Assembly (NCBI RefSeq): GCF_033153115.1 | Contig: NW_026889793.1 | Span: 186,001 to 250,000 of the forward strand | Source: Saccostrea echinata | Taxonomy: Eukaryota | Direction of reading: 5' to 3' | DNA length: 64,000 bases | Part shown: positions 14,269 through 54,820 of the stretch, piece after piece | How positions within the stretch are numbered: the first letter of the stretch is position 1 | Layout of the letters: each line of letters begins with the position of its first letter | Notes under the pieces: model-generated | What the model saw: the letters and a program-made list of their open reading frames with translations, nothing else | What the model was told of the DNA's origin: nothing | Database searches by the model: none | Made by a program: the position numbers and the translations under genes

Positions 14269-14579
14269 TTATGCACAATATCCCTCAAACTCTTGGACAG
14301 TACAGCTATGATAACAGCACTCACACACGATGTTTGTGTCGCCATTTCTCTTCACATAAGGAAAATGGCTTGCCCTCTTTATGGCGTGAGTTGCATGCAA
14401 GTCGCCTGAGAGAAATGCGAGTGCTTTCTCTTTGTTCGATAAAAACTTTTTGATGACTGACTTCCATGGTGAACGTCTTGAGTTTAAGGATGGATGATGG
14501 GGTTTTATTTTACCAAGATGACGTAGTTTTTCTAACGGTAACAAGTTTTCGGATGTCGTAAAATTTTGTTTTATCATGT
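14269..14579 (-). CDS. Molluscan insulin-related peptide, gene A, last coding exon (C peptide and A chain)
   Basis: Acceptor TATTACAG (AG at 14581-14580), phase-1 join giving N. Encodes ...KRASHFPYVKR-NGDTNIVCECCYHSCTVQEFEGYCA*: insulin A-chain CC-x3-C-x8-C plus an extra N-terminal Cys. Confidence 0.93.
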
Positions 14580-14739
14580 CTGTAATATACAAAAAAGTAG
14601 AATTAGAAATTTGATAAAATAAAGAGAGTGGCATAATGCAAGTTTTAGGTCATTGATATCAAATATCTATTCATGAAAGAATTTGAAAGCATTATTAATA
14701 AGTCATTACTAAAAAAATGTCACGTTATTTTATACTTAC

Positions 14740-14956
14740 TCCTACGAACAATTTTGTCTTTTCTTTCCCGGGTACTTTTATTATTGCAGACGATTTCGAG
14801 AATGTCGGCTAATTTGTCTCCGCATGCGCCTTGTGGATGTACGCCTCTGCGATAGGTTTCATATGTACAGACTTTGTCATACTGGCACAGCGAAGGACTC
14901 AAGAAGTACAGAAAGGATAGAAAGATAGTGGACCACAGGTGGCCGCCTTTAGGCAT
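14740..14956 (-). CDS. Molluscan insulin-related peptide, gene A, first coding exon (signal peptide and B chain)
   Basis: MPKGGHLWSTIFLSFLYFLSPSLC signal, then QYDKVCTYETYRRGVHPQGACGDKLADILEIVC (CG-x10-C plus extra Cys) and basic sites. Donor GTAAGT at 14739, 160-bp intron. An upstream acceptor CTATAG puts the exon start at 15001. Confidence 0.93.
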
Positions 14957-15173
14957 TCTCTATGGGCGGATCCAGAAAGAGTTCGAGCTTGAGGTGAAGA
15001 CCTATAGATTGCAATCAAAACTAAACATTTAAAAAAGTACTTTCGAAAACTTTTAAATTTTTACAAGAGATGAATTTCTAGTTGTATTTTTCTTATAGAT
15101 TAAAAGAAAATGAAGAGGGAAAAACAAGCTAAGACAAGAAAATAAACAAAAATCAACAAATACAAATAAAAAG

Positions 15174-15349
15174 NNNNNNNNNNNNNNNNNNNNNNNNNNN
15201 NNNNNNNNNNNNNNNNNNNNNNNNNNNNNNNNNNNNNNNNNNNNNNNNNNNNNNNNNNNNNNNNNNNNNNNNNNNNNNNNNNNNNNNNNNNNNNNNNNNN
15301 NNNNNNNNNNNNNNNNNNNNNNNNNNNNNNNNNNNNNNNNNNNNNNNNN
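15174..15349. other. Assembly gap
   Basis: Run of N. Confidence 1.
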
Positions 15350-15410
15350 ACACTATTTCTGCATGGTTACCATAATACATCTCTGGACAGGTCACATACA
15401 TACATGTACA

Positions 15411-16409
15411 TGTATATAGAGATATTGTAAAATCACAGAAGAATTCTTTACTTAAAAATCATACTGTAAACCGTATATACATCGCTAAATTCAGTAGAAT
15501 TTTGGAGAGTTGTAAATAAAATGAACAATAAATAACGAGCGATTTCGTATTGCTCTTTATCATGTCGCTTACGTTATTTTAAAATACGATGTTCCATTTC
15601 TAAAAAACGTAAATGTATTTGAAACGCTTTTTTCCCCACAAGACAGTATAGAAAGGTACATAATAGAAAAAAATATCTCTATCTAATGTACTACCGTTTA
15701 CAAACGTCCATTACATATAAAACTGGCGTTACACACAGAAGTTGATTACGTTTTTCAAGGTATTTTTTAATGATCGAAATTCAAACTTAGCGTCTGTAGA
15801 AAAAAGTAATATTGATAATCATGAAGATGACTTGTGTTTACGAATGCTTTTAATACTTTGTTTGATTAGTTTGCAGTGTTCAGTTAATTTCACAGTAACC
15901 CTGTGTAATGAATATGCGGGGAATATACCGGGTTAGTTTATATTTGAACATTTTCAATGATGGTGCTGAACAGTTCTGTCATATCATATAAGTTTCAATA
16001 ATTATAATATATGGCAAAATAAAACAACAGTAGATCAAAATTTGCTCAACCCATGAAGTCACATGTCAAAGAGAAGGTGAATTAAAAAAGGAGGTCTCGG
16101 CATAAAATTGGCCATCCATTTTTTTTATTGTGTAAATTACATTTTACTATATTTTTTTATTAATCAATTACTGCTTTTAAAACAATTAACCAAAATATAA
16201 TTTAAAAGTTTTTTTTTTTTTTTGCTGTCACATTTGAAACAAGAATGTGCATATATACATGCTTATATAGAGAGTGCTTTTTGATATGTGATTCAATTAT
16301 CCGGACGATTCATTTATCCGGACGATTTCGTTGGGGACAGAGGCGTCCAGATAAACGAGGCGCCACTGTATATAGAGATATTGTAAAATCACAGAAGAAT
16401 TCTTTACTT
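15411..16409. repeat. 43-bp exact direct repeat (15411-15453, 16367-16409) next to a Tc1/mariner-like MITE end
   Basis: TGTATATAGAGATATTGTAAAATCACAGAAGAATTCTTTACTT occurs twice. The second copy begins at the ...GGCGCCACTG-TA terminus. Confidence 0.8.
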
Positions 16410-17271
16410 GAGGTTAATATTGATTTAATTAAATTACTATTTAATATTGAAAAAAAGAATTTAAAAAGATAATATTTCATATCAAAGTATTCAGATATAT
16501 TCATTAAATTGATATAATGCTTCTGGATGGTAGAAAAAAAGTGGTCCTAAATTATAATTAGTTGATCATCAACCTGCTGTCACAAACAAATTAGACCTCA
16601 AAAGCTTTCTGAAGCTTGGTTAGAACGACTTTCTACAATGAATTTTGCAAAGTACAGATCCTGTTATACACATGGTACAGACCTCTAAATGTTGTTTTTA
16701 CAATATATATGAGTTAAAATCTTGTATCTTGTATCTTGTATGAGCCGTCTCACGCAAAAGGGCTCTTAAGGTAGAAATTATCAAAATTTACTATTCAGTG
16801 GATTATGATAGATTACAGTGTAAAATAACCAAATTTTAAAGTTTGATTTAAATATTCATAATGATAACTTAAGCTACATGTAATAAATATTAAATTATAA
16901 ATAATACATAATATATACTTTATAGTTATGTTAAATCAGCAACAAACGTGTCCATCTTTGAGGCTAAAGTCTTATTTTGAAAAAAAAATGTTTCTGGGAT
17001 ATTATGTCCTGAAAATTTTGCTCGCTGAAAGGAACAAAAAAAAAAAAAAGAATATGAGGGAGTTTCGAATGTTAAATAAGCGAATTATTTATAAACATGT
17101 ACTAGTATGTAAGTAAACGAGTCTTTCAGTGCGCGTAAATTTGTGCATGAAAATAATTATGGCTTATACTATATAAAGTATTAAATCGAATGAAAAAATT
17201 GGAATTATATAATTTTTTATTTATATCTAACGATTCATTAAAATGAATAGCTTTTAAATTTCTAGGTAGCC

Positions 17272-17575
17272 AATGACGGTAGCCTAGTGGCAGGGCGTTC
17301 GCTTTGGGATCGGGAGGCTAGGGTTCAATTTTCGTTCGCTGCGTCAAACCAAAGAAGTAAACATAGGTTGAAAGCCACGGGTCTCTTGGATGAGACCAGA
17401 AAAACCGAGGTTCCATGTCACGGTAGGCATTGGCATGAAAAAGAAACCTCACTGCTCAATTGCCCTGAGTGTCGAGTATAGGACTAAACTTGAAGCCATT
17501 CGCCGGTATATAGTGATGTCCCAAAATACATGAAAAATTCTCGAATGGATGTAAAACAAGATACAATTAATCAAT
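17272..17575 (+). mobile_element. tRNA-derived SINE with Meta/MESC-like core
   Basis: A box TAGCCTAGTGG, B box GGTTCAATTT, core AAACCGAGGTTCCATGTCACGGTAGG...AAAGAAACCTCACTGCTCAA, and an (AATC)-like tail. Confidence 0.8.
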
Positions 17576-17867
17576 TTCTAAGTTCTTTTTTGAAATTAAA
17601 ATCTGTTCTATCTATTTAGTATTTGTCAATCTTATATTAGTTATATAAGTAAGTTAACATTTACAGAGTGTAAATGGACTCAAAATTCACAGTAATTTTG
17701 AAATATTAAATATTTATATTATTTCTTTGATTTAAAAATAAAGTTCAAATGCATATTTCAAATGATCAATGACTTAACAAAATCTTCTTACTTTCCTTTT
17801 AGTTAAATGAAATTAAAAAAGTAAACATGTATTCATTTCATTTCTCGCGTACGTTTGAAACACCTAC

Positions 17868-17950
17868 CTAAGCGTTGATCCTTCGGAGTAGAAGCTACCT
17901 ATCCCCTGGTGACTGACAAGAAAACAACAGCATTAAGTTGTCTTTATATA
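17868..17950 (-). promoter_or_regulatory. Candidate core promoter and non-coding exon 1 of insulin gene A
   Basis: Minus strand: TATATAAA (17950-17943), Inr TCAGTC (17916-17911), then a ~47-nt exon ending AG|GTAGGT at 17868/17867. This fits the three-exon insulin-family layout. Confidence 0.6.
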
Positions 17951-18669
17951 TGAAAACAACAAGTGCACAAAATATAATTAAAATACTCTTAATTGTAGCA
18001 TTGAAATCTTACAAATTTTTCACAATCTCCGGCGAAAAATCCAATCTTGAAATGGCAACACTTCATTCATATGAATCCGCAATATGAAAGTTGTATTATA
18101 CCGGAAACTATGATGTCATCAACGATCAAATTCTTTACATAATAAACACCAATGATGTCAAACAAACCGGAATTTTTCTCCCCTCTGTCAACATTTTTTT
18201 GGTTTAAGGTTTGTTTTCTTGATTAATGAGGTTCTTTTTCCTATGTCTTCTGCGTCACAATGGCGACAAAAAAGACAGACAAAATGTAGCCTGTCTTTTT
18301 CTGTAGCCTTGAGTTGAACTGTCATTGACCATGGCTTATTACGAACAAAATAACAAAAAGAACCAATCCTGGATATCTGTCTCTCTAGTTGATCTCAATA
18401 CTATTAATTGTTTGGGGTGAGGAAAGTGCCTTAAATTCAATCTTATAAAAGAAGTCCAATGTGGACGACAACTAACCAAAATAGAATTAGTTGTTTTCTT
18501 TTAGAGGTCTGGAAATATACATAGTATTAGCTGTTTGAGTAATACTACAGTTATATTTTTCAACAGTATAAGAAAATAAAACGTTAAAGGTTTACAAAAA
18601 TGTTCACAATACAATCTACGTATTTGATGGTTTTTAGATTCACATTAAACAATTCGCTAGAAATGTTTG

Positions 18670-18880
18670 GTTGTTTCCTTGCTTGTTTAACGTCTCTTTC
18701 GAGATTTTTTTACTCATATTGAGAAGCTACCACTTGCCGGTAGAGGGCTTCAAATTTAAGACCTATACTCGGCACTCAGAGCCATTGAGCAGTGAGGGAT
18801 GGATCTTTTTCGTGCCAGCTAATACTGTGGCACGGATCTCGGTTTATACGATCTAATCCTGAGGACCGGTCATCACGTGC
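18670..18880 (-). mobile_element. 5'-truncated copy of the tRNA-SINE
   Basis: Reverse complement of the core and tail (ACCTATACTCGGCACTCAGAGCCATTGAGCAGTGAGG). Confidence 0.8.
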
Positions 18881-20492
18881 CACAGTGGAAGCGCTAGAAA
18901 TGTTTTTTTTTTGTTTTGTTTTGTTTTGTTTTTGGTTTTGTTTTTTTTGTTTTTGGTTTTGTTTTTTGCTTAATTTTGTAAATAAAAAAGCATTTATTAC
19001 TTTTGGCCTGATACTTCCAATTATTTTTTTCCGAGCTGTTGAAAGTGTAATATGTTGACGTATTTTTCTGAGTAATTTTTTCTACACATATATTACCATT
19101 AAATTTCTGTTTATGTTGTGTACTTCAGAAAGATGTGGAAATGCTTGGTGAAAAGTTGCGTCATATGCGTTCAAAAAATGTCATGTAGTGCACAAAATTA
19201 CGCTTTATTACGAGACCTCTTAAAAGGAAAATTACAACATTACAGTCCATTTGAAATTTAAAGTCGCACATGACATCTAAAAGAAATTATTAACATTAAC
19301 TAAGAGTTCCATTGAACATGTTTCTTTTGGAAATAAAGATTTTTACCGATAAAATCGAATAAGACTCTCTCAATATCAAAAGTATTTACAATATCTCTAA
19401 CTTAATTTTTTTTTTTTTTTTGATTATTTTGGATTATTGACGTAGTTTTTTCTGGCTCATTCTCATTTTTTCAAAGTTTGTTGATATTTCCATGTTGTGT
19501 ATCCACATTTTGTTGTTGAACAACTAACTAAAGATGGGTTAATTCCTAGTAGACAAATTTCCATGTATAGATATAGTATTTGGATGAAGCAGCGTTTTGT
19601 AATTTTCAAACAAAATTAATGTAGGATTTATTATTGTTAAAAAAATTATGGTTCATATTATTAATACAAATTTCTGCCTTTTTTAAAAAATTAATAAATT
19701 TAACAGCTAATATCAGTAAATTGATATAGAAATTATCAGAACAGTGCAGCTAAGATTTAAAGCAATTCTACTCCAGTCTAAAGTAATAATTGTGAGTTTT
19801 CAAAATAAAAAAAAAAAACAACACAGAGGTCTTATTTCCTTTCCGTAATCAACATTTCCCACAAGGAAAAAACTCTTACTTTGAGGATAAAAAACTTAAA
19901 AGATCTAGCTTAATACATGCATGTATTCTTCTAGATGTATCTTTTATCATCGTCAGATAACCGTAACGACAGAGCTCACGACAATTTTGTAACTTTATAA
20001 ACCTCATCCGGTTAAGGAAAAATATTCCATTGACAAAGGAACCACCGGGATTGCACTTAAATCCTCCGAAGTACATTCCTCTGGTGTTAACGTGAGTGGG
20101 AAGGTATAATGGTGTCCCTCTATTCCAGTTTCCTACTCTTTCTCAAGGTTACTGATTCATTCACTCCTTTATCTTTGTATAATTATCAAAGACAAACATT
20201 ATTCGATTTTATTTCTCCATTTACAAACGAAGTCAATTGCTTAATAGCCATTCAGATCGATGTTCCAGAAAACTACATTATCTTGACAGTAACGGTTATT
20301 CTGTTACGCAATGACTCGGTCCTTTTATTTGCTGGACGTGTAAACCTACAACAATTTTAGTATTATAATTTGTCATGTTTTAAAAATACTTTTGTTAACG
20401 TTCCGAACATAGTTTTTCATGTCATAAATATGTAATCAAACCCCTTTTAGAAACCTTGTTACACAAATTAAATATGTTATTTTCTTTTAATG

Positions 20493-20667
20493 TACAGTGA
20501 AAACTGTCTAATCCGACACCTGTGTAGTCCGTTTCAATGTAAATTCTAATATTCATTTCCATTGCCATTTTTTCCACATTCTTTACACTGTGTAATCCGA
20601 GATCCTGTTTATTCCGACATAAAATTTGACTCCAAGTGTAGATCGGATTAGACAGATTTCAATGTAT
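20493..20667. mobile_element. Small Tc1/mariner-type MITE
   Basis: TA-CAGTGAAAACTGTCTAATCCGA ... TCGGATTAGACAGATTTCAATG-TA imperfect TIRs. Confidence 0.75.
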
Positions 20668-21159
20668 AAACTTTCTGATTTATAAACTCTCAGAATACAT
20701 TTTGGGGAATAATAGAACTTAAATAAACGTTGACTTAATTGTTGTAGTGGGAGAGTTTGGTTTACTTTGAAACGCAAAACAAAAATGTCCAATCTCTTGT
20801 TATCTAGTATGTAAATTCATCTCACTTGCCTCTCTCTTTCTAGACTTTATTCAGGATTTTCTTTGATTGCCATACACAAACACAATGGAATTCCGAACAA
20901 CCAATACATCTCTGATTGTAAAGGTTCCCTGTGGACCTTATACACAATATAATTATGCACATGAAGTATAGTAGACTTTTTTCCCATGTAACTTTTCATA
21001 GAGATAAATCCTGTACTCCTTTCTGGGTAATGTATACTTGGTTTCTTGCTCGCGTTTGTTAATTCTTTTTGTGAAAAGTTTCCGAAGAAAATTACGTAGC
21101 TAAAAAATGAAACTCACTGCCTGTCTTTATTTATTGATCATCAGAGTTTGGATTTATTG

Positions 21160-21495
21160 GTTGAATAATTGTTGTTTAACGTCCCAGTTCCAGAAATTTT
21201 CACTCATATAGAGACCTCACTATATACCGGTAAAGGGCTTCAAGTTTAGACCTTTACATGTACTCGGCACTCAGGGACATTGGGCAGTGATGGATCTTTA
21301 ACGTGGCAGCGCCTGTCGTGACACAGGGCCTCGGTTTATAAGATCTCATCCGAAGGACCCACAACTTTCATTTCAAAGTGCCGAGCGCTTGGCGAAGGAA
21401 CAGTTGTTACTGTTTTTTAACGATTTAGGTCAGTCGCATCCGGGGTTCGAACCCATGACCTTCCAAACACGGAGCGAACGCTCTACCGACTGAGA
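21160..21495 (-). mobile_element. Near full-length tRNA-derived SINE
   Basis: Minus strand TCAGTCGGTAGAGCGTTCGC...GGTTCGAACCCC (A and B boxes), followed by the same core and tail as 17272. Confidence 0.85.
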
Positions 21496-30640: not shown

Positions 30641-30775
30641 AATGTGAAGATAACGAACAGTGATCAATCTTTTAAATTCACTAGACATAATCTATCGTAA
30701 ACAGGGCAAAAAATACAGACCCTGGAATCGCCAGAGGAGGGATCAGGTGCCTAGGAGGAGTAAGCGTCCCCTTTG
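30641..30775 (-). mobile_element. Penelope-like 3'-terminal fragment
   Basis: GAAGATAACGAACAGT...GGGATCAGGTGCCTAGGAGGAGTAAGCGTCCCCT. Confidence 0.85.
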
Positions 30776-31199: not shown

Positions 31200-31815
31200 A
31201 GCTCAAAGTCCATTGAAACAATACAAATTATGAGCATAACACTGATCTCTAAAAACATCACAGCTGGTATCAGGAGCCATTCAGGAATAAGAATCCCCTG
31301 TCGACAACTTACACCCGCCGTGAGCTCCTTGTCATGATAGGGTAAACGGAAAAAACCCAGACAATTCAGGATGAAAAAAATGGCCTAACAACTTGTATGA
31401 AAAACTTTGGTCAACATTCAACTTAATGATAGAATGTATATGCTAGCAAGGCCGTTGTATCGACCATAGATTTTGCAAAATATTGACTTTAAACGAGATT
31501 GATGATATCCTTGTACCATCAACTTCTTTTTCAATAACTTGCCTCGTTCTAAATGCAAAATAGGACTGCTTATAACTGGGCACAATTAGTTTCATTTTTG
31601 TTGGAAAAGCAGCTATCTATGATGTCATAAAGTTCGGTCTTTAAATTATTGGAAATGGTTGTATGAAGTGTTGATCGAAAAGTCGTATATGGTTTGATGC
31701 CATTGAATTTGGTTAAAAATAAATTAATTTTTCTAAAAGTTCTTTGGAGTTCTTAAGTATCCACACCTGATTAACACCACATCTCAAATATGCTGTTGCA
31801 CTGTACTCCAGAAAT
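31200..31815 (-). mobile_element. Internally deleted Penelope-like fragment
   Basis: Translates EYSATAYLRCGVNQVWILKNSKELLE and carries the 3'-UTR motif ACACCCGCCGTGAGCTCCTTGTCATGAT. Confidence 0.85.
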
Positions 31816-34329: not shown

Positions 34330-36780
34330 TGTGAAATATATGGAGATAACGAACAGTATTTAAGCTCAAAAGTCCATTAATCAATACAAAATAGGAGCAG
34401 AGCAAACACGGACCTCCAAACATCAGAGGTGGGATCAGGTGCCATGGAGGAGTGAGCATCCCCTGCCGACCGGTCACACCCGCCGTGTGCTCCTTGTCAT
34501 GATCGGGAAATAACGGAAAAATCCGTCGACAATTCAGTGTGTAAATAATGGCCTAACAATTAGTGTGAAAAACGTCAGTCAGCATTTGACTCAATGATAA
34601 ATTGTATTTGCTGACAAGGTCATTGTATCGACCATAGAACTTACGAAATGATGACTTTAAACGAGACAGCTGATATTCTTGTTTTATCAACTTATTTGTC
34701 AATAATTTACCTCGTTTTAGAAATTGTACATACGTAGAGCATGCTCTTGCGTATCGAATCAACTGAGAGATATATACCCCATATGCAGGTGATGAAGGTA
34801 TATTGCTGCATAAGTAAGGGAAGTTGACGATTGAAAAGTTAAAGTCATCACGTTTATCATAAAGCTTGGTTGTTAGATCACCATTAACGTCTTTCTCAAG
34901 TAAAATATCCAAATATGAAACAGATGTGTCAGACTCTGTGGTATCTTTTATCTCAAGTTCACAAGGATATATCGTATCGACATAAGAATGGAAATAGCCA
35001 TTGTTAATTGACAATACGTCATCGATATATCTAAATGTCGAGTTGAAGGCCACAGCAAGTGTTTTCTTCTTTTCACGTACAAGATTTTGGACAAATTCTG
35101 CTTCATATGAATACAAAAAAAGGTCTGCTAATAACGGGGCGCAATTGGTACCCATAGAAATTCCAATAGATTGTTGGAAGACCTGGTCTCCAAAAACCAC
35201 ATAGATATTGTCAATCAGAAACTCAAGCATCTTTTTAATGTCAACTTCAGAGTACTTGTGTGAACAATCAGAATGTTTTTTAACAAAATAATTTTGCAAA
35301 TGACCAATGACAAGGTAAGTATATTTACGAGTTCCATTTTTATTGAAAAAGCAGCTGTCAATGATATCAAAAAGCCTGGACTTTAATTTATCGTGGGGAA
35401 TGGTTGTGTACAAAGTTGAAAAGTCGTAAGTTTTTAAGCTGTTGATTTTGGTAAAATCTTGTGATTTCAAATTTTCCAAAAGTTCCTTGGAATTTTTAAG
35501 TATCCACATCTGATTTACACCACTTCTCGAATATATTGTTGCACAGTACTCTTGAAGTTTCTCCTTCACCACTGTTAATATCTTAGTGAGGAGTAAAGAT
35601 AGAGGCTTGGTTGAACATTTACTGGAACCCGCTATGTATCTTTCTTTGTAAGGATTTTTATGAAGTTTCGGAATCCAATATAAATATGGTAATTCAAATT
35701 CATTTTGGTTGTTTGGAATATTAAAAATATTCAAAACTGACATATGATTTTGAAGAATTTCTTCCTTAGAAAGGGAACTATGAGTATAAGTTGGATTACC
35801 ACTTGTAGAATTAAATCCAAGTTCCTCTAAAATACATTTAATATAATGAGCCTTACAAACAAAGACAATGTTGTTACCTGCTTTGTCAGCAGGGACCAGT
35901 ACGTACTGATCATGTAATCTATCTAATTCTTTTTTCACTTCTGGATTATTGAATACAGAAGGATAGATGGTTTTCATATTGCCTCTCAATCTTTTAATGC
36001 GTGATTTTAACATACATCTGATACATTTAATCCATTCTGACAAAGTGTCAAGGTCTTCTTTTTCATGTCTGGTCCATCGCCTGGCGTAGTCCTCTACAGA
36101 ATCCATAATATTTATGAAATTCCGACGCCAGTTGAAGGATCTGGGTTCCCTAAATTTAGGACCTTTTAAAATTAGTGATCTAAGGTCCTCATTATTAACT
36201 ATATTTACGTCACCAGTAATAACGTGTCCAGCAGGACTATAGTTATAGGGCGAAGAAGAACATGAACACGATGGAGGATTATGCTTCAGATATTCGATAT
36301 CCAGGCCCTGTAAAGTTTTCTTGTAATTAAAAAGTTTGGAAGCAATAGTCGATGTATATTTGTAGGAAATACAAGGTGGAGTCTTTAACTTGACATATGG
36401 TGGAATACAAGACTGGACCCTTTTGTGATTAAGAATATTACTTATATTAACCGCGTCAATTCCTTTGTTGGCATATTGAAGTTTAAGGAAAAAACGGATT
36501 GTTTTAACTGCATTTTCTTCAGTAAAACGCGGGGGTTTAAAAAGCCTATGATTGGCAATATCCATAATTACAGATCCGAGCCTATATTCTGGTGTCGAGG
36601 AATCAAAAAATGGACTTTCCTTGACCTTTTCAAGAAGACTATTTAAAAGTTTCAAAGGGACAGGGTAAAGTTTGGTGCGAATATGATGTAAACCTAACTG
36701 TTGATTTACGTAAGGTAGTAATGAATCAAAAGAGACATCGTGTATTAAAGGTTTATTGTAAGACCGATGCCCATGACTAC
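34330..36780 (-). mobile_element. Penelope-like retroelement (probably Naiad clade), 5'-truncated and recent
   Basis: Uninterrupted RT frame plus a ~225-bp 3' UTR shared with many local copies. There is no C-terminal GIY-YIG domain. The frame stays open upstream of 36655 to SHGHR at ~36778. Confidence 0.85.
34553..36655 (-). CDS. Penelope-like reverse transcriptase (N-terminally incomplete)
   Basis: Motifs KGPKFREP, VPADKAGNN, YWIPKLHK, DFSTLYTTIPH, QSIGISMGTNCAPLLADLFL, catalytic YIDD, and thumb LYDKRDDFNF. The TTG start is arbitrary because the frame continues ~41 codons upstream. Confidence 0.92.
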   Translation of the reverse strand: MKLLNSLLEKVKESPFFDSSTPEYRLGSVIMDIANHRLFKPPRFTEENAVKTIRFFLKLQYANKGIDAVNISNILNHKRVQSCIPPYVKLKTPPCISYKYTSTIASKLFNYKKTLQGLDIEYLKHNPPSCSCSSSPYNYSPAGHVITGDVNIVNNEDLRSLILKGPKFREPRSFNWRRNFINIMDSVEDYARRWTRHEKEDLDTLSEWIKCIRCMLKSRIKRLRGNMKTIYPSVFNNPEVKKELDRLHDQYVLVPADKAGNNIVFVCKAHYIKCILEELGFNSTSGNPTYTHSSLSKEEILQNHMSVLNIFNIPNNQNEFELPYLYWIPKLHKNPYKERYIAGSSKCSTKPLSLLLTKILTVVKEKLQEYCATIYSRSGVNQMWILKNSKELLENLKSQDFTKINSLKTYDFSTLYTTIPHDKLKSRLFDIIDSCFFNKNGTRKYTYLVIGHLQNYFVKKHSDCSHKYSEVDIKKMLEFLIDNIYVVFGDQVFQQSIGISMGTNCAPLLADLFLYSYEAEFVQNLVREKKKTLAVAFNSTFRYIDDVLSINNGYFHSYVDTIYPCELEIKDTTESDTSVSYLDILLEKDVNGDLTTKLYDKRDDFNFSIVNFPYLCSNIPSSPAYGVYISQLIRYARACSTYVQFLKRGKLLTNKLIKQEYQLSRLKSSFRKFYGRYNDLVSKYNLSLSQMLTDVFHTNC

Positions 36781-36821
36781 TGTGAAACCTATAAAAATGG
36801 AAATCAAAATTATTTTTGTCT

Positions 36822-43097: not shown

Positions 43098-43965
43098 CGG
43101 AAGCCCGTTGAGGCCATTTCAGAGAAAGAAAATATTTTTATTGCGTTTAAACGCAATAATTATTGTGTTAAAACGCAATTATTATAATTATATAGTTAAA
43201 CGCAAAACATTGCGTTAAATCGCAATAACATTGCGTTTAAAGGCAAAACATTGCGTTTAATCGCAATGTATATTGCGTTTAAACGCAAAACACTTTGCCT
43301 TTAATCGCAAAAGATTTGCGTTTAAACGCAAAAATTTTGCGATTAATCGCAATACTTGAATCATATGAGATCAAAATCAAAATCAAATGAAAACAGATTG
43401 ATCGATGTGTACTACCAAATTGACCAGTACTATTAATACCACTGAAACGTTTTTAAGTTTTTAATTAGCTGTGATACGTAAGCAATTGATCAAAGGCTTC
43501 ATTTAAAGTGTTGGGTTCTAATACGTTTAAGTCATTCTGGTTGTTAGGATACCATTATTTTACTACAAATCTCCAAAACTGGACATTTTGCAAAAAAGTA
43601 ACAGTGTCGGATCCTAGTAATTATAAGCTTTGGCTAATTGATGTCTGATTTTAAACTACAGTATCATTGCGTTTATATGCAAAACAAATCCTTAAAAGAA
43701 GGGATTATTGCGTTTAAACGCAACATAATTGCGCTTAAACGCAAAAATATTATTGCGTTTAAACGCAAAATGTTTAATCGCATAATTATTGCTTTTAAAC
43801 GCAAAAGATTGTGTTTAATCGCAATCGTTTGCGATTAAACGCAAAGTGTTTTGCGTTTAAACGCAATAGACACTGCGATTAAACGCAATGTTTTGCGTCT
43901 TTATTATTGCGTTTAAACGCAATAAAAAATATTTCTTCCTCTGAACTGGCCTCAATGGGCTTCCG
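43098..43965. mobile_element. Foldback MITE with long TIRs, TA TSD and arrays of the palindrome TTGCGTTTAAACGCAA
   Basis: TA-CGGAAGCCCGTTGAGGCCATTTCAGAG... and ...CTCTGAACTGGCCTCAATGGGCTTCCG-TA. About 10 palindrome units lie in the left arm and about 12 in the right. Confidence 0.9.
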
Positions 43966-44618: not shown

Positions 44619-44777
44619 NNNNNNNNNNNNNNNNNNNNNNNNNNNNNNNNNNNNNNNNNNNNNNNNNNNNNNNNNNNNNNNNNNNNNNNNNNNNNNNNNN
44701 NNNNNNNNNNNNNNNNNNNNNNNNNNNNNNNNNNNNNNNNNNNNNNNNNNNNNNNNNNNNNNNNNNNNNNNNNNNNN
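44619..44777. other. Assembly gap
   Basis: Run of N. Confidence 1.
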
Positions 44778-45274
44778 AAGATTTTTTTTAAATCAATGAC
44801 TGCATACTCGTTCCAGAATGTCGTGTTTCTCCCCTCAGGCGATTAGGGCGAAGGTCGACTGGTCAGCTATTACAGATGACCTTGTGTCGGACAGTGCCCT
44901 GAACAAATTGTTGGTTTGGGAGTTAGGACAAAACAACTGCATTTTATGTTGATATAAAGTAGTGCAAAAAAAAAAAAAAATAAATAAATAAAATATACAA
45001 TGATAAAAATGCACCTATCTCTACAGATTTAAACGTTTGAAAATTTAAAAACTTAATATAAAATATAGATTGTAAATGAACTGCTTCATCAAATGTTATA
45101 ATTAGCATTTTGCATATTCATTCAATTTCATGAATATTTAAATTACGGATATTCCTTCAAGAGATATAAACAGCGCCATCATAACATTTTCCGAGTACTC
45201 AAACTAATAATATTCACATCGGAAAAATTTAGATACTAGCATCAAGTCCACGAGTTGTATATTGAGTGTAAGAT

Positions 45275-45398
45275 TGTCATGTAAGTTTTGAATTTACCAG
45301 GTGGCAGTAAATATACCAAATTTACATGACAAGTTGTGATGTAATTTTTCTTATTTACTGCCACCCGGTATAAATTAAAAAAAATTTAGAACATGACA
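45275..45398. repeat. Local inverted repeat
   Basis: TGTCATG...TACCAGGTGGCAGTAAATA versus TATTTACTGCCACCCGGTA...CATGACA. Confidence 0.7.
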
Positions 45399-46685
45399 GG
45401 ATGTTACTTTGATCTGGTTAGTGATCAGAGGGTTTATGAACCTTAAGCATGAAAAAATAGTCGAATAAATTTTACTCTTTCTTATTAAAAAAAAAAAACA
45501 CGAAGAAACAGTGATTTGCACAAATTATAAGGAGTTCATACTCTTGGTTACGATTTTCTGACAGCGAAAGAATGTCATTTGGTAAAGTTCGGATAATTTC
45601 ATCACGGACGTATACTTTATAGTATTTATTTACTTGGATACTGAAGTAGCATGTAAGAGAAAATACATTGTAGACTGACGTATAGAAAACAATCGATACC
45701 TTTACTTAGCCTTGAATTTCACAAAGAATCGCAGGTTTCAAGAAGACGTAAGTTTGACCGATAGTCCATCATTTTTCTTGTCAATCTGTCATTGCGCGCA
45801 TGCACAAGAAGATGCATTTACTAACTGCCCTGCACGTTTGGCGCTTTTCTCTCGACCTTCACAACATGCTTGCACGTCCATTCAAAAACAATTTTGCAAG
45901 AAGATTATTGTGTGGGTTGGGAAAAATCGGTTTGACCGCAATGGATATCACAGCTGTTCGGCGGATCTTTCATCCAAAGGCAAACTTTGAACTTTTACTT
46001 AGAGAATGGCCAATGACTTCTTGTATAGTGTACCTGGTCACCTTGTTGTTTTCAACAACGTAAGGTTTTTAAAGACGCTTTTTTTCCAAATTAAAAAAAG
46101 AATGCATAATAATAATAATCAGATTCTTTTATATAAATACATAAATCTATAAGAATTGGACGCTAATGTTGCAGAGTAAAATTTTTTGTTGAATAAAACT
46201 TGAATTCTCCAAATCAATTGGACTAAAAAAAAATAAAAATCCTCTGTGATATATCATATATGTGCATTTTCTTGTTTTGCTTGGCACTCACATAAATAGT
46301 TTGATTTTATTTTGTAAATTTGAATTAGTTGTGTCTATATTTCTCATTTTGTTTTTAAATTTGGCCCAAATTATTGTCCACAATTTTATTTCTTCAAAAG
46401 AATAGGATTTCTAAAAAATATAATATGTGTTACATGAATCTAAAATATGAGAAGGGGGCACTAAAAAGTGCATACGTGTAACAGAAATTTTTCTCAAAAT
46501 AAGGAGTCTAAAAATGGATAATAATGTGCAAGAATTTAACGATTTAATGAAGTAATCAAGCTACAGATCTTGAAATCACTGAATTTTTTTCTGCATAAAT
46601 AAATATATTTTTATAAACGTACAAAATTAGAACAATTGTAGAATTTGTTAATACAACCTTAATCCTGCTATATAACAAACACATT

Positions 46686-48005
46686 TATTATATGATTGAA
46701 TAATTCCCCTCTTTCTGATTGGCTGAGATCCAACAATGTTAGAAAAATACTACATTATATTGACCTGCACGTGATCTTCCAGGTCAATATAAGGAATTAT
46801 TTATTCTACATTGGACTAAAAATAGATAGGGAAATTCCAAATTAATGCAAATAGTTTTGGAAAGTTATTTCACTTGCATATGACATCCACTCATATGAAC
46901 ATAAAATTAAGGCACATAGATTCTTGGGTGAGGGGTCGGGGGGGGGGGGTGCAGGATTCCTGCCCCTCTCCCCACCTTTTGAGAATGTTAAGTTTTAATT
47001 TAAATTTTAAGGATAAAAAATTTCATTGTAAGCCCCCCTCCCCTCGAAAAGTTTATGTACCTTTACATCCCACCAAATAAAATTTTGATTTGGGAGAATT
47101 CTATTCCTTTTGGGGGGGGGGGGGGCTAGTCAAAGATTTGTTTTCAGGTACGTTGTCAATTTTTTTTTCTTTATATGCCCCCTTTTTCAAAATTAATCCT
47201 ATATATGTGCCTGACATTTATTTTTCTACATTGCACCTAAACTAGAATTAAAAATTTCAAAATAATACAACTGTTTTTTTTTTTAACTCTGTTTCTCTGA
47301 TATTCGGCTAGTACTTCAGTAGATGTGAACAAGTAAGATGGCACGGATTGCTTAATGAATGTGTGTCATTTAATCATTGAATCATATAATAAAACAATTA
47401 TTGCTGTTTTTTCGGTCAATACGATGATTTAGCCACCTTCGAAGTACAATATTCACCTCGCCCTTCGGGCTCGGTGAATATTGTACTCCTCAGGTGTCTA
47501 AATCATCGTATTGACCTCAAAAACCAGCAATAATTGTATATTATTATATGATTGAATAATTTCCCTCTTTCTGATTGGCTGAGATCCAACAATGTTAGAA
47601 AAATACTACGTTATATTGACCTACACGTGACCTTCCAGGTCAATATAAGGAATTATTGCAGGTCAATATAATGAATCACGTGACCTTCCAGGTCAATATA
47701 AGGAATTATTGCAGGTCAATATAATGAATTATTCCTGTTCCATTTTTTCATGTTACAATGTGTTCTTGTTGAAATTTCTCGTTAAAACTTTCAATTAAAG
47801 CAAAAAAAAAAACAACAGTCTTGTAGGAGTTTGCTATCATTTAATCATATAATAAAACAGTTATTGCTGTTTTTTGAGGTCAATACGATGATTTAGACAC
47901 CTTCGAAGTACAATATTCACCTCGCCCTTCGGGCTCGGTGAATATTGTACTCCTCAGGTGTCTAAATCATCGTATTGACCTCAAAAACCAGCAATAATTG
48001 TATAA
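46686..48005. mobile_element. Head-to-tail dimer of a non-autonomous element ending in a ~150-nt hairpin
   Basis: The head TTATATGATTGAATAATT...CTGATTGGCTGAGATCC occurs at 46688 and 47544. The hairpin centred on GCCCTTCGGGC occurs at ~47390-47540 and ~47855-48005. Confidence 0.8.
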
Positions 48006-49629
48006 TACTTTTAATTTTCTCGGAGATTCTCCATGCAATATACATTTGAAATACAGCTGCGACGAATTCGAATGAAAAAAAGAGATGGAACAAACCTGAA
48101 AGGGTCGGGTTATAGGACATTATAAATAAAACTCAAGGGAAATTGGTTTTTCCATTTAAGACGAATTCCCATTAACCCCTATGTACTTTTGTAGTTCCAA
48201 TTATAGCATAATAAAATGATTGTAATCAGGGCCTACTCGTTGTTTTAAACGACACGATCATTTAAAAGATAATGGATGATCTGAAAGACACAAAAGTATG
48301 GAGACGTTTTTCACCACACGTAGATATATATTGAAGTGAGAAGTGCAAAAACTATGACGAGGGAAAAAAAAGTCGCATCGGCTGAACGAAACAACATTTA
48401 GATAGCGCGATGTACATATGTACATTATATAGTGTAAAGCTTCTTGTCTCCGTGAAATTGCAAATGCAAAAGAAGCACATGAAATGATATTAGAAATTTA
48501 ACTGATTTTGCATATAGCAGCATTTTGTTTGTCAAATGTTTTGTCCACCCCAGCCCCACGCCCACTAGTACTTTTTCAAAAACATATACACGTACGTGCC
48601 TGGGCATATGCAATCGGAATACAATGACAAGCAAAAAAGGGCATCATACTACATGGATATTATTCAGGGGACACAATGTTAATTATCATGGATTGTCTAT
48701 TTTTAGCATACATGAATATTGCCCAAATAAATCGAGGGGGAGGGAAGGGACACGAAATTTCCCTCCCCCACAGTTCTGCAGTAAGTAATTTATTTAGCTG
48801 ATATTTATAATTTTCAAGTCAGAGTGAATTAACTTCAGATCTTGGGAAATATTGACCTTGTAATGTTATTTTCCTTTATAGGAATGGCGACAATTACCTA
48901 TCTGTCCAGGCTGTTTGAGATGATTATAATCATCTTACTCGGTTTATTATGTAATTTTTCTCTTCGTAACTAGCAATATGACATTCTCACGACAGTTGTC
49001 AAGAAAGCTTGGCCAAATGTGACTTCTACCTGGTGGTCATATGGTGATGAAAATGCTTATAGTGCAATTCACACGATAAACAGTTATACGGTCAATACAC
49101 CGATATATTTAAGATCTAAAGCAATGCTGCTTGTTTGTCTCCGTGTTAAATGTAGATATTCACGTAAACTGTTTTTTTTTTTTCGATATTATTGAATATC
49201 TGGTGACATATAGACCATTCATTCCCTGACTGCTTTAGGCAAGTAAGAAACAATTTCAGTATATATAGGGGAGAGGGGGCACTAACGAACGGAAATTCTT
49301 TGATAGGCACAAAAAAGTCATCAGTCGTTAATATAGAAGGTCTTCTTCCATTGGGTTTGTATAGTTTATGCTGACAAAATACCCCCCCCCCCCGCTTTTC
49401 CCTCTTCCAAACGGCCAATGCTTGTGCTGAAATAACTGATACATGTAATTATTATGTTATTGGGTTGTTGGGTATTGTTTGAACTTATTTTTTCTCTGTT
49501 CATGGTCTGGGCATGGTCTTCGTACGTTCATTTTGAAATGAAGCGCAATCATACTGAGCTTCCCTCTTTCCAATTAAACGTTATAGCAATTTTGATTGCA
49601 ATTCGTCCAGTGATTTCAAAATGAGATAA

Positions 49630-50100
49630 CAATTAAGATTTATTACATTTTCAACAGTGAAATACTGAGATTTATTTATTGAATAAAAGTGATATTTTCT
49701 CACAGTGTGAAAGGAAAGTAAGTAAAAAATAATTTCTGGCGTGTCATAAGATAGACATAGTAACTAAACATCTAAATAGAGCTAAAACTGCAAATTTCTT
49801 CCCAAATATGTTGTTAAAATCCATGCTATGTAATGTTTTCAATCTCACAACTGCTAAGCTATGACGTCTCAACCGCTCAACTATGACGTCAAGCCTATGA
49901 CACTGTGTTAAGAAAAGAGAGAGGCAAAGGGAAAATCAAAGAAAATGTAATAAACAGAAAATTCAATGTTTTGTAGATGAATATGGAATTTATTTCACTC
50001 GTGAGATAAGATTCGCACTCGTGAAAATATCAAAAAATCCTGTCCCACTCGTGAAATAAATTCCATATTCATCTATAAAACATTGAATATCCTCCATATA
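49630..50100. mobile_element. Non-autonomous element with terminal 38-bp inverted repeat (possibly Crypton-like)
   Basis: ATTCAATGTTTTGTAGATGAATATGGAATTTATTTCAC (49961) versus GTGAAATAAATTCCATATTCATCTATAAAACATTGAAT (50051), with CACTCGTGA x3 between. Confidence 0.6.
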
Positions 50101-52621
50101 GCAAAAGCAAATGAAAAAAAAAAAAAAATCACAAAGATTTTATAAAAAAGATCTTTAAATCTTCGGCCAATATATAAATCAAAAGTACAGATTCGTGCAT
50201 AAGGACTCTGTAAAAGTTAAATAAGAAAGTAATACAAAGAAGGTAACAGCTTTTTGAAAATTTTGCAGATATATACATGTAGTAATAAAGAGCAGTGGTT
50301 TTGTGGTGAGTGTGGTATTTATTCGGTAGGGTGTGTTAAAACGAGGTGGACACTAAAAATATATAAACTTACATTTGTCGGTGCGTGTGTTTGGCAGGGC
50401 CGAGGCGCGGGGGTGTGGTGGGTGCATTGGTGGGTTTTAAACCCATAGGCCCTATAATTTGGCATATTCTTTTTTAAAGATATTGCATGGGATGATATAA
50501 AAAAAAATCTGAGGATGCCCCCATCCCCTACTGGTATAGTCCCTAATCTTCTCCGAGTTACGGTCGATCATTTATGATAATGTAGGGAAAAAGTCATGAC
50601 ATTTGTTTTAACAACAATCGGATCTAATTCAAGGCCGAAAATAATAGACATTTGGTTGCCATTAGGAATAGTAAAGATGTATCGTGATCAAAAATAATTA
50701 TTTCTATGTTTAATGATTTTGATATTTAGCCGCTTGCTGTTAAAATGTCGCGAATAAATTTCACTGAATGTTGTTCGAATGAAATATTTGCACATTTTTA
50801 TATTCAAAAAATATATCTTCATTTCAAGATTTTTCTGATTTTTTTGGTTCCGACATTTCAAATAAATGATGAATCAAGGGTAAATCTGTTATTTCTTAAT
50901 TTTGTTTGAAAAAAAAACGAACTTAATGTAATGAAGAAATTGAAGAAACCCTTATCTTCTAGAAAATTTTTACCTGGATATGTCGTAACACGAAAGGTCT
51001 AACTTAAGGCAAACACAAGTTCTTAGGTATTCAAAATTTTGAAAGTTCGTCAGAATACAAATAGTAGCAAGGACAGAAATGATACGATTTTAAATGTTAA
51101 ACAATCATATCTTAAATGTACAAATATCCAATATCAAGCCGCGTATTTAATCATTGAATGAGCTATTAAAGTGACAAGACTGAAGTTTCTTCTTTCTCAT
51201 CCCTTCTGTCCGTTTTTCTGAGGGTGTTAAAAGCGGAAGATATTTTTTTTTCTTCAATCAAAGGGAATTCATAAAAGTCGATAATTTCTATTCAAAAGAA
51301 AAATATTGGACGTCTTGTTTTGTAAGGGCGTGGAAAAAGAGTGTTATATAATTAATCGTCTAGATTTCTTCATTCTGGAGTCTGATTCCGTCTACGGAGT
51401 TCGGAGTATTGTAATTCTTTGTTTCCGATAATCTTTTAGACATTAGATATATATCCAGGCTTGATCACGCGTCTGGTAAGGATTATTAGAATCGACTGCC
51501 GCGGCTTCTCTCCGTCTTTCGTTGCTCAGCACGCGCAGGAGATACATCGGAGTGGAGAGGTCCCCTCCATTCGGGATCCTCTAATGTCGTAGACTGTCCC
51601 TAGGAGGAGGAGGCGCACCGAACGGACTTATGTCTTACAAAGACTGGGTAGGTTTTTTTACATATATATATATTTTTTTTCTATTCATTTTTCTTTTTCG
51701 TTTGCGAGATTTTTTTTTTGCCAAGCTCTTGTTGTTTTCCTCCTCGGCAGGGGTCAAATAAGATATGTTGTTTGTGTACTAGTGTTTTGACTTATGTTTT
51801 TTTTAATCGGATTAGCAAAAGATTAATGCAATTAAGAGGAACAGGAAGGGGAAATATTCCATCTGATATAATTTCCTAGTTTCCTGTTGGTAAGAAAATA
51901 ATACAAATTTTATTATTTGCATAAAAGTGACTTCAGTAGTAAAATTTTGCAAAAATTAATTAAAAGAATTAGAAATTACAAAAAAATATTTTTCTGCTGA
52001 CTTTGGACATTTTACCTTTACGCCCTTCGTTGACCCCAAAGTTGTGGGTCGAAACGACATGATAGCCTTGCTGTTTATGAAGGAGAGATGAAGGGTTTGG
52101 CCATGAGCCTTTATCGTTATGTCAATACTTGTTCTGTGTGAAGTTTATATAAAAGTCAAACCCCTGTCCAAATAGAACAAATTAAGAATTATCTCTGAGA
52201 CTTTTAGGGAGCGGATCATTATTTTTAAATTTATTTTACAAAAATCGTTTTAAAAACTAAAGCATCTCTCTCTCTCTCCCTTGTAATAGATTTTCGATCT
52301 ATCAATGAATGAAAATTAAAAAAAAATACAATTTAAGTGGGTTAATAATCGACATTCTTTAAATATTGAGAGTATAATTATTCATCAATTTCTTTTTGTA
52401 ATCGCTACCCAAATAATGTTTACGCTCTCTTCTTATACAATAGAAATTTCTACACAGAACCAACTGATATCAGAAGTTTCATTGAGTCGTTTAACTGTCA
52501 AAATTTGTATTCCGAAGCTTTGTAAGGATAATTAGTTTCCACAGCAGGAACAAATTGAACTTGTTCAAACTATCAAGGTCTTATGATTGAATTTCTATTG
52601 AGGCCAATGGCAGCCCTGATT

Positions 52622-52622
<1 letters not shown>

Positions 52623-52674
<52 letters not shown>
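52623..52674. repeat. (CT)n microsatellite
   Basis: About 25 CT units. Confidence 0.98.
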
Positions 52675-52679
<5 letters not shown>

Positions 52680-53503
52680 GCATCCATAAGAGCTATATAT
52701 CAAACAAGCACATAATATTTTGTTGGCGTTAATTTGGTCTCAGAAAATTAGGAATAAATCGCTAAAAAAAAAAATAAAATAAAATAAAAAGCAAATCATA
52801 TTTTGTATGTGTTATTTTAATCTCAGAAAATTAGGAATATATTTCTGAAAAAAAAAAAACCCAATAATAACAATAATACAATTAATGCACGTCAAATATT
52901 CCACAGAGATTACCCTCTATTCAGGGTCTTTCACCGTCAATGTATATATATTGCTTATCTGTTGTTACCTCATTACACGACTCTGCCGTTCTGATTTGGT
53001 GATAAGTGAGGAAGACTTTAGTATACATGTAATAAATACCTGTAAATACATATTTTGTGATAAGAAGATCGATTTAATTCAAGTTTCCGTTGAGAAGTGT
53101 ATAGGCATAATTAACATACAGTAATTGAAATCAACCCATACATATGTCATTGTATTTTTATTTAAAAAAGGAGAAAACGTGTCAAAAACATATATTTGCC
53201 TTATCGCAACAGCGTACTGAAACAAAATGTTATTAAGTCATGTCTAGGTAGTTGAACAGTCAGGTCTTCAGTCAGCTTCGCTTTTTCAACTTTATTACTC
53301 CCAAATCAGCTGCATGCTTTGAAATTTTTTTTTTTTTTTTTGAAAAAAATCTCTGCAGTGTTGAATTAGAAATAAAATGTACCGTAAGAACGTTCATTTT
53401 TTATCGCATGCACAGGTTCTGCGCACGCATAAAAATACTACGTCATCACTACTCCCTTGTGTTTGCATAAAAATGATTAAAATTTATTTTTTCACAGTGC
53501 ACC

Positions 53504-53756
53504 ATGCGGGAAAACATGCCAGTAAAACGGACACATCAAATTTTTATACTCCTGTGTCTACATTTCACTATTGTACATTCATACTTTGAGCGTGTGTGTG
53601 ATTCTCGGACCGAGCAGCGGGGACCGGATCCGGAAGGAATATGTGGAGGCATGATACCGGAAATGCTCCATTTGGTATGTGATGGGGAATATTACGTACC
53701 CTCACATGCAAAGCGTGATGTATCATCACGTTCCCATAAACAAGAAAATAATGTCG
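53504..53756 (+). CDS. Molluscan insulin-related peptide, gene B, first coding exon (signal peptide, B chain, start of C peptide)
   Basis: Acceptor TTTTCACAG (53497) and ACCATG. Signal ...QIFILLCLHFTIVHS; B chain YFERVCDSRTEQRGPDPEGICGGMIPEMLHLVCDGEYY; KR site; donor GTAAGT at 53757 (phase 1). Confidence 0.93.
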
Positions 53757-54566
53757 GTAAGTAAAAAGATTTCACTGCATGTACAAACGATTTTCATAAG
53801 AGTCTATGTTAGAAACTGCTTAATATATAAAAATTGAAATCGAGGTCTTTGTAAGCAAATTGCATTGCAGGCAAACTCTTCTTTACACAGGGTAAACGAT
53901 CTCTTTATGATAAGCACGTAATAAAAATATTGCGCAAATGTTGTGATGAATGTACATACAATATACATGTACAGTCAAACTTCCATATATCGAAATGCGG
54001 GAATGTAAATTAAAAGAGTTATATCCAAAAGATCCAGAGAGAATTTTTCATTTAACATAAAGTCAGGACCATCAAACCACTTAACCATTAAACCATTGTT
54101 TAATTTAGGAAAGATTTCACGATGAGGAAAAGTTAAGAAACAATGATTTTATATATAGAAATTAAAATACCTAGTCTTTTACTAGCTTTGTTATTCCTCT
54201 TATTCAAGTACGTACAAGTATTGTTCATATTGACTTTTCATGAATATGTAATATAGCTACCTAATGATTGATCGAAATTAGAGTTGTTTGAAATAAATCT
54301 TTAATTCGAATCTAACACACCCACCCTCCCCGATCAGTCACTAACCCTGATCTTGGACCGGTAGATGGTAGTCTTTCACCGCGCCTTGGCACAAAACCAT
54401 TATTAGTGCTATCACGCTAGCATCTCTTTGTCTTTTAATAAAAGAGACAGAGACCCTTTTCTCATAATGAACTAAAAGGGAGGATAATTGTTAATAAACG
54501 CTAAACATTTTTAGAAATTTTTACCATGAATCATATTTTAAGCTTCATTTCTTTTTTTTATTGCAG

Positions 54567-54820
54567 ATTTCCCACGTTATTCGCCTTTAGAAGGACTAAT
54601 CCTCGGCAAAAGAGAGGCCTCTATGTATTTATCAAGCGAGCACTCCCGAACCAAGCGAAATACCTATACAGGCATTGTGTGCGAATGTTGTTATCACAGT
54701 TGCGATTATTTCGAACTTTTGCAGTATTGCGCAGTTAGGAAAAAGAGAGATACCAAACCCGACTCAATTTCAGCGAATTCTCACAATTCTGGAATAATGG
54801 TTGACAAGTTATCAAAATAG
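54567..54820 (+). CDS. Molluscan insulin-related peptide, gene B, last coding exon (C peptide, A chain, D peptide)
   Basis: Acceptor TTATTGCAG (54566). Reads DFPRYSPLEGLILGKREASMYLSSEHSRTKR-NTYTGIVCECCYHSCDYFELLQYCAV-RKKR-DTKPDSISANSHNSGIMVDKLSK*. Confidence 0.93.

What the first reader, a model, noticed from the sequence alone, without database searches (positions are those of the whole stretch)
14269..54820. Head-to-head pair of ancient 4-disulfide insulin paralogues
Seen: both genes have 3 B-chain and 5 A-chain Cys, a phase-1 intron early in the C peptide, an acceptor just before the ATG, the B-chain pattern C-x6-RG-x2-P-x-G-x-CG, and an identical IVCECCYHSC. In that stretch 7 of 10 codons differ only at position 3. 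Known: the extra Cys pair marks molluscan insulin-related peptides (Lymnaea MIP and Aplysia insulin type). Inference: an old inverted duplication kept under purifying selection, possibly sharing enhancers in a 38-kb interval with no recognisable host gene.
Basis: partly seen in the sequence, partly recalled or inferred. Interest (0 to 1): 0.7.

Follow-up and report, generated by a model that had tools for sequence, protein, structure and literature searches.

The report
Known oyster insulin-like gene pair
These are two ordinary insulin-like hormone genes of an oyster, sitting back to back about 35 kb apart; they match a linked pair already described in the Pacific oyster and likely act as nerve-cell growth and energy hormones, and sharing of control DNA between them is untested.

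Summary
Two intact insulin-family genes point away from each other (A minus strand, B plus strand). Each has 3 B-chain and 5 A-chain cysteines and a phase-1 GT-AG intron in the C peptide. B's junctions are spanned by spliced contigs; A's were not tested with RNA. Both genes are annotated in RefSeq. They correspond to Pacific oyster cgMIP123 (A) and cgMIP4 (B), by accession, primer translation and the same flanking genes. Xu et al. 2021 (PMC8149454) already report these two as physically linked duplicates expressed at identical neural sites. The duplication predates the Saccostrea/Crassostrea split (dS about 1.9, dN/dS about 0.25). The shared motifs and exon layout are family-wide, not pair-specific. 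Corrections: B has an upstream exon with a conserved in-frame ATG, and the gap between likely promoters is about 33.5 kb and holds a retrotransposon ORF. Shared enhancers are unproven: the promoters share no excess words, and published tissue ratios differ about 260-fold. Only the head-to-head orientation may be unreported. Verdict: already known.

The parts
17916..17950 (-). Predicted core promoter of gene A (TATATAA at 17950, initiator-like TCAGTC at 17916)
   Evidence: Motif scan; 17916-18400 is 99.4% identical in the second copy on C49; the stretch 17780-18400 matches only C44 and C49 in G000. Not confirmed by RNA.
18111..18160 (-). Two TGACATCA (CRE/AP-1-like) sites upstream of gene A's predicted promoter
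   Evidence: 2 of the 8 occurrences in the window; none in the 50800-51450 stretch around B's promoter. Function untested.
17869..17916 (-). Predicted non-coding exon 1 of gene A (donor AG|GTAGGT at 17868)
   Evidence: Sequence and motif scan; prediction only
14740..15001 (-). Gene A (cgMIP123 orthologue) exon 2: 45-nt predicted 5' UTR, ATG at 14956, presumed signal peptide, B chain, start of C peptide
   Evidence: the RefSeq model of the C49 copy, XP_061195038.1, differs at 3 of 175 residues
14580..14739 (-). Gene A phase-1 intron, 160 nt, GT-AG
   Evidence: same joint in RefSeq models P0027 and P0028; the cgMIP123 qPCR primer reads YDVLKRA, matching the exon start of P0030
14269..14579 (-). 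Gene A last coding exon: C peptide, KR site, A chain, stop
34553..36820 (-). 755-aa open reading frame of a retrotransposon-like element inside the interval; not part of either gene
   Evidence: nearest clusters are RT/HTH_animal proteins; decayed relatives elsewhere in the window; no Pfam hit
51345..51376 (+). Predicted core promoter of gene B (TATATAA at 51345, TCATTC at 51370)
   Evidence: the longest spliced contig starts at 51388
51388..51647 (+). Gene B (cgMIP4 orthologue) exon 1: 5' UTR plus in-frame ATG at 51630 (6 codons)
   Evidence: Spliced contigs in 2 of 4 runs laid (X1, X2); RefSeq XP_061193194.1
53498..53756 (+). Gene B exon 2: presumed signal peptide, B chain, start of C peptide
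53757..54566 (+). Gene B phase-1 intron, 810 nt, GT-AG
   Evidence: Skipped by contigs in 3 of 4 runs laid (X1, X2, X3 = 2 samples, 2 studies)
54567..55481 (+). Gene B exon 3: C peptides, A chain, RKKR and 23-residue C-terminal extension, stop at 54820, 3' UTR to at least 55481

Best explanation
The window holds the oyster orthologues of the linked Pacific oyster insulin-like genes cgMIP123 (gene A) and cgMIP4 (gene B), divergently oriented paralogues from a duplication older than the Saccostrea/Crassostrea split, which likely work as neurosecretory hormones each driven mainly by its own promoter. SHOWN here: two intact reading frames, opposite orientation, splicing of B, correspondence to the published genes, the same flanking genes, and purifying selection on the mature chains. 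INFERRED from the family: each precursor enters the secretory pathway; prohormone convertases cut at dibasic sites (A: RK65/RR71 and KR149; B: KR70, KR99, KR114, RKKR142); the product is a B+A heterodimer with the three insulin disulfides plus a fourth (B-chain first Cys to the Cys two residues before the CC); it signals through the insulin-related receptor to set growth, energy storage and gametogenesis. The pair probably arose by local duplication with inversion of one copy. It stayed linked as part of an unbroken oyster synteny block (CAAX protease - A - B - SPATS1), and the copies partly diverged in expression outside the nervous system.
For: Gene models and cysteines. Spliced contigs for B. 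B is RefSeq XP_061193194.1; the cluster of its C. gigas relative holds XP_011415724.1, listed as ILP2 in Xu et al. Supplementary Data 1. cgMIP4 primers translate to VSSLSHH, CRNWCN and FTSVQS, all in that protein. cgMIP123 primers translate to LRLVCRK, YDVLKRA and VCECCY; the first two fit A-type proteins (LKLVCR in P0028, DVLKRA in P0030), not B. C. gigas gene ids run 753 CAAX protease, 754 MIP123, 755 MIP4, 757 SPATS1. G000 C44 has CAAX at 158-164 kb, A at 200 kb, B at 240 kb and SPATS1 at 281 kb. A and B relatives share a contig length in S. cucullata (147,500) and C. virginica (64,991,568). In the tree the 3 A rows and 5 B rows are separated at 96/99 support. pN 0.35, pS 0.69, dN/dS about 0.25. 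Published qPCR peaks in neural tissue for both genes, but the MIP4/MIP123 ratio is 24 in mantle and 0.09 in male gonad (12 of the 13 tissues in the figure). The two promoters share no more 8- to 10-mers than random windows.
Against: The C. gigas A protein itself (XP_011415722.1) was not retrieved, so A's orthology rests on short primer translations, the C. virginica relative and gene order. The fourth disulfide is not shown (model pLDDT 49.7). In the tree the two outgroups are long branches and the root is unsure. Co-expression at identical neural sites and a tissue correlation of rho 0.66 (0.55, p 0.08, without the neural sample) leave room for shared distal enhancers. 7-mers shared by the promoters were borderline (5% of controls reached the count). 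Matching contig length is weak evidence of linkage.
Confidence: 0.8

Rival explanations
1. The two genes form a co-regulated unit: neuronal enhancers in the 33-kb interval drive both promoters, and this need keeps the pair linked and divergently oriented.
For: Divergent orientation with no recognisable protein or RNA gene between. Identical in situ sites and similar peak levels in neural tissue of C. gigas (PMC8149454 Fig. 2 legend; neural ratio 1.25). Gene order kept between two oyster genera.
Against: 33 kb is far too long for a bidirectional promoter, and each gene has its own TATA/initiator-like motif. No excess of shared 8- to 10-mers. Ratio varies about 260-fold across tissues. The flanking housekeeping genes are equally conserved in order, so linkage needs no special cause. 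About 15% of the interval is repeat shared within the window, including a full-length retroelement ORF. Nerves in the tissue samples could explain the cross-tissue correlation.
Confidence: 0.2
2. A and B are not sister products of one local duplication but members of two older molluscan insulin subfamilies that stayed in, or were brought into, one ancestral cluster.
For: Mature chains are only 45-57% identical between A and B against 67-94% within each group. Distant metagenome relatives share the same motifs and intron phase. The outgroups do not resolve the root.
Against: Xu et al. report both genes grouping with the molluscan MIP clade and call it a tandem duplication. dS is high but finite (1.87). 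The two still align in the C peptide.
Confidence: 0.25
3. One copy is an artefact or a decaying pseudogene.
For: The assembly keeps two copies of the whole locus (C44, C49). A's alleles differ by 3 non-synonymous and 2 synonymous codons. A evolves faster than B.
Against: Both frames are intact in both copies; A relatives exist in S. cucullata and C. virginica; B is spliced in public contigs; the C. gigas counterparts are expressed.
Confidence: 0.02

Closest known systems
Pacific oyster cgMIP123 (LOC105319754) and cgMIP4 (LOC105319755, XP_011415724.1); Xu et al. 2021, PMC8149454, citing Cherif-Feildel et al. 2019
   Same: Orthologous pair, adjacent genes, same flanking CAAX protease and SPATS1 order; B's mature chains are 78% identical to cgMIP4.
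   Different: Different oyster genus. [quoted passage not shown] Orientation in C. gigas could not be checked.
Mulinia lateralis mlILP (PMC13198591, passages read)
   Same: Three exons and two introns; 3 B-chain and 5 A-chain cysteines, four predicted disulfides; placed in the MILP3 clade.
   Different: Described as mainly digestive-gland expressed; no linked paralogue appears in the passages read.
Lymnaea MIPs and Aplysia insulin (named in PMC8149454; structural details recalled)
   Same: Extra cysteine pair, cleaved C peptides, neuronal origin.
   Different: Gastropod genes; no sequence comparison was run here.
Bombyx bombyxin gene pairs in opposite orientation (recalled, from no call)
   Same: Clustered insulin-family paralogues that point in opposite directions, so inverted insulin pairs have precedent.
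   Different: Recent, intronless, closely spaced insect genes with three disulfides (recalled).

Membership tests
Insulin superfamily | A-chain signature CC-x3-C-x8-C (PMC12702675) | tested here: met
   Both genes; Pfam PF00049; a profile of the 8-protein alignment hits IGF/insulin chains in PDB, best E 2e-8
Insulin superfamily | Signal peptide - B - C - A precursor order with dibasic sites | tested here: met
   Order and dibasic sites; the signal peptide was judged by eye from a hydrophobic stretch, no predictor was run
Molluscan insulin-related peptides (beta type, 4 disulfides) | 3 Cys in B chain and 5 Cys in A chain | tested here: met
   same spacing in all 7 full-length oyster proteins compared
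Molluscan insulin-related peptides (beta type, 4 disulfides) | Fourth disulfide actually formed | tested here: inconclusive
   AlphaFold model of B from a 9-row alignment has mean pLDDT 49.7 and gives no bond table
Molluscan insulin-related peptides (beta type, 4 disulfides) | Three exons, second intron within the C peptide | tested here: met
   B: spliced contigs. A: coding intron from sequence and RefSeq models; first exon predicted only
Molluscan insulin-related peptides (beta type, 4 disulfides) | Neuronal expression and processing to a two-chain hormone | not testable with these tools
   Published for the C. gigas orthologues at RNA level; tissues of runs X1-X5 are not on record
cgMIP123/cgMIP4 linked pair | Orthology of B to cgMIP4 | tested here: met
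cgMIP123/cgMIP4 linked pair | Orthology of A to cgMIP123 | tested here: met
   Indirect: primer translations and gene order; the full C. gigas protein was not retrieved
Bidirectional (shared-promoter) gene pair | Transcription starts within about 1 kb (recalled definition) | tested here: not met
   About 33.5 kb between predicted starts; the ATGs alone are 36.7-38.5 kb apart
Enhancer-sharing divergent pair | Common distal elements conserved across species and contacting both promoters | not testable with these tools
   No other oyster genome DNA available (genome search holds no relatives); the C49 copy is too close (2.0% substitutions over the interval)

The most novel reading that the evidence does not exclude
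The head-to-head orientation is conserved across oysters (and perhaps bivalves) because enhancers in the 33-kb interval drive both insulin genes in the same neurosecretory cells, with gene-specific elements adding mantle (B) or gonad (A) expression. This would give a compact, testable control region for oyster growth hormones.
Probability: 0.2. Interest if true: 0.4.

Novelty: already known. Interest (0 to 1): 0.15.

Why it matters
As found, it matters little: it extends a published Pacific oyster gene pair to another oyster genus and adds the exon map, orientation and distance. If shared enhancers were shown, the interval would become a defined target for studying neuroendocrine growth control in farmed oysters and an example of regulatory linkage between old hormone paralogues.

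Tried and rejected
Nucleotide similarity between the two gene regions: only a 50-nt match at 74% (A chain) and short chance hits, so no recent duplication or gene conversion. A third insulin exon in the window: none among the tblastn rows shown or in the motif scan; the family search finds one other locus, on C12 (a lower bound: it missed A itself). Treating C49 as a second paralogous cluster: rejected as most likely an allelic copy, being colinear, 2.0% different over the interval and with the same flanking genes. Using C44/C49 to find conserved non-coding elements: too close, and divergence varies in broad blocks of 0.1-7.5%. Homologue search with A's last exon in 'longer' mode: 0 of 50 candidates scored, because the length window excluded 175-aa proteins. 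Run search: no holder is on record as RNA; the spliced contigs themselves suggest RNA. Metagenome scan: 5 of 86 stretches were relatives, all on contigs under 5 kb, useless for synteny; the scan pattern included VCECCYH, so that motif is not an independent control there. Structure model too poor for a fold search. Earlier findings of this scan: nothing in 3 of 3 look-ups. Cherif-Feildel et al. 2019 is not in the library; its data companion PMC6321970 (part 1 of 2 read) has no gene map. Supplementary file 1 of PMC8149454 could not be read and may show the orientation. Searches for a printed head-to-head claim found none, but most subscription papers are not searched.
Full report
Observation. 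Gene A lies on the minus strand (14956-14740, 14579-14269; 175 aa) and gene B on the plus strand (53504-53756, 54567-54820; 168 aa from that ATG). Both introns are GT-AG and phase 1. Each protein has three B-chain and five A-chain cysteines, the C-x6-RG-x2-P-x-G-x-CG pattern and IVCECCYHSC, with 7 of those 10 codons differing at the third base only. Pfam assigns both last exons to the Insulin family, B above and A just below the curated cut-off. A profile of eight oyster proteins finds IGF and insulin chains in the PDB.

Gene structure. Contigs from public runs (RNA by guess only) skip B's second intron in 3 of 4 runs laid (2 samples, 2 studies). In 2 of 4 runs they add an upstream exon at 51388-51647. 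That exon carries an in-frame ATG at 51630, giving the 176-aa RefSeq protein XP_061193194.1, labelled Saccostrea echinata. An equivalent upstream start is present in all 5 oyster B proteins aligned, as is the Met of MPV; the Met at 53504 is present in only 2 of 5. Which start is used is unknown. For A, a TATA box at 17950, an initiator-like motif at 17916 and a donor at 17868 predict a short non-coding first exon. Its coding junction agrees with two RefSeq models and with a published cDNA primer for the C. gigas gene. The distance between likely promoters is about 33.5 kb.

Identity. The cluster of B's C. gigas relative holds XP_011415724.1, one of the four oyster insulin-like proteins in Xu et al. 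2021 (PMC8149454, Supplementary Data 1). Their cgMIP4 primers translate into that protein, and their cgMIP123 primers translate into A-type sequence. The genes are LOC105319754 and LOC105319755, flanked by a CAAX prenyl protease (..753) and SPATS1 (..757). In G000 the order on C44 is CAAX protease, A, B, SPATS1. [quoted passage not shown] 2019. It also reports that in situ signal for the two falls at identical sites in a neuron. I read parts 1-2 of 7 of that paper, further passages, supplementary files 2 and 5 whole, and rows of files 3, 4, 6 and 8. The 2019 paper was not available.

Age and selection. A and B proteins from two or three oyster genera fall on either side of a 96/99 branch (10 rows, whole precursors, two long-branch outgroups, root unsure), so the duplication predates the split of Saccostrea and Crassostrea. 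Over 55 mature-chain codons pS is 0.69 and pN 0.35 (dS 1.87, dN 0.47; rough, near saturation). A distant metagenome relative (L023) has the same B-chain cysteine spacing with P-x-G-x-CG, an acceptor 14 nt before its ATG and a phase-1 intron early in the C peptide. Mulinia mlILP has three exons and 3+5 cysteines (PMC13198591, passages).

The interval. None of 119 N-free ORFs of 55 aa or more reaches a Pfam cut-off, and Rfam finds nothing in the window; short exons and lncRNAs are not excluded. A 755-aa retrotransposon-like ORF sits at 34553-36820, and about 15% of the interval is repeat shared within the window. A second, colinear copy of the locus on C49 keeps the divergent orientation, differs by 2.0% over the interval and is most likely allelic.

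Mechanism. Inferred from the family (PMC12702675, passages; established knowledge): secretion, dibasic cleavage, a two-chain hormone with three canonical disulfides and a fourth from the extra cysteine pair, and signalling through the insulin-related receptor. The fourth bond was not shown; the model was too poor. On regulation the evidence is mixed. In the published C. gigas qPCR (12 of 13 tissues, one pooled sample) both genes peak in neural tissue at similar levels (ratio 1.25) and correlate across tissues (rho 0.66; 0.55 without the neural sample). However, MIP4 is 24-fold higher in mantle and 11-fold lower in male gonad. The two promoters share no excess 8- to 10-mers; 7-mers are borderline at 5%. 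Two TGACATCA sites lie near A's promoter only. Independent promoters with partly divided expression is the best reading; shared distal enhancers remain possible (about 0.2).

Novelty. The genes, their family, linkage and neural co-expression are in print. I found no statement of head-to-head orientation, but the primary paper and one supplement were out of reach, and opposite-orientation insulin pairs have precedent in insects (recalled). Verdict: already known; interest 0.15.

Noticed in passing
window 3485-5153 (+): B-box/TRIM-like gene with a beta-propeller-type C-terminal part, its frame split between two overlapping ORFs near 4803-4858; a typical expanded bivalve family, possibly a frameshifted copy.
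   Followed up: partly
window 34553-36820 (-), with decayed relatives near 7340-7838, 9551-9910, 28336, 31388-31808, 56220-57387, 61418-62293: Uninterrupted 755-aa reverse-transcriptase-like ORF of a retroelement with no Pfam hit; nearest clusters carry RVT_1 or HTH_animal. The Penelope-like label is recalled, not tested.
   Followed up: partly
G000 C49:1.905-2.076 Mb vs C44:158-281 kb: Second copy of the whole locus. The CAAX-to-A distance is about 100 kb on C49 against about 36 kb on C44, and B-to-SPATS1 about 26 kb against 41 kb, so large indels flank the pair while the A-B interval is nearly constant.
   Followed up: partly
window 15412-16410 (gene A predicted intron 1): About 1 kb present here but not in the C49 copy, bounded by a direct repeat of about 43 nt and starting with a DNA-transposon-like end.
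   Followed up: no
gene A C peptide (14579-14350) and gene B C peptide (54567-54650): The paralogues and distant relatives keep a short helix-like C-peptide motif (K-x-x-A-x-x-[FY]-L); A lacks the KR site that B has just before it, so C-peptide processing likely differs.
   Followed up: no
gene A codons 36-37 (about 14851-14846): An RR pair lies inside A's B chain between the extra Cys and the first canonical Cys; C. virginica has QR there, so it is probably not a conserved cleavage site.
   Followed up: no
L022:562-1017: A metagenome contig carries an apparently intronless 3+5-cysteine insulin-like frame (transcript or retrocopy).
   Followed up: no
L024 (G000 C12, about 21.99 Mb): A third insulin-family A-chain exon with four cysteines, unlinked to the pair; probably another oyster ILP type.
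   Followed up: no
window 43134-43922, 46700-48010, 49640-50100: Inverted and direct repeat arrays typical of non-autonomous transposons; they account for most contig coverage between 41000 and gene B's first exon.
   Followed up: no
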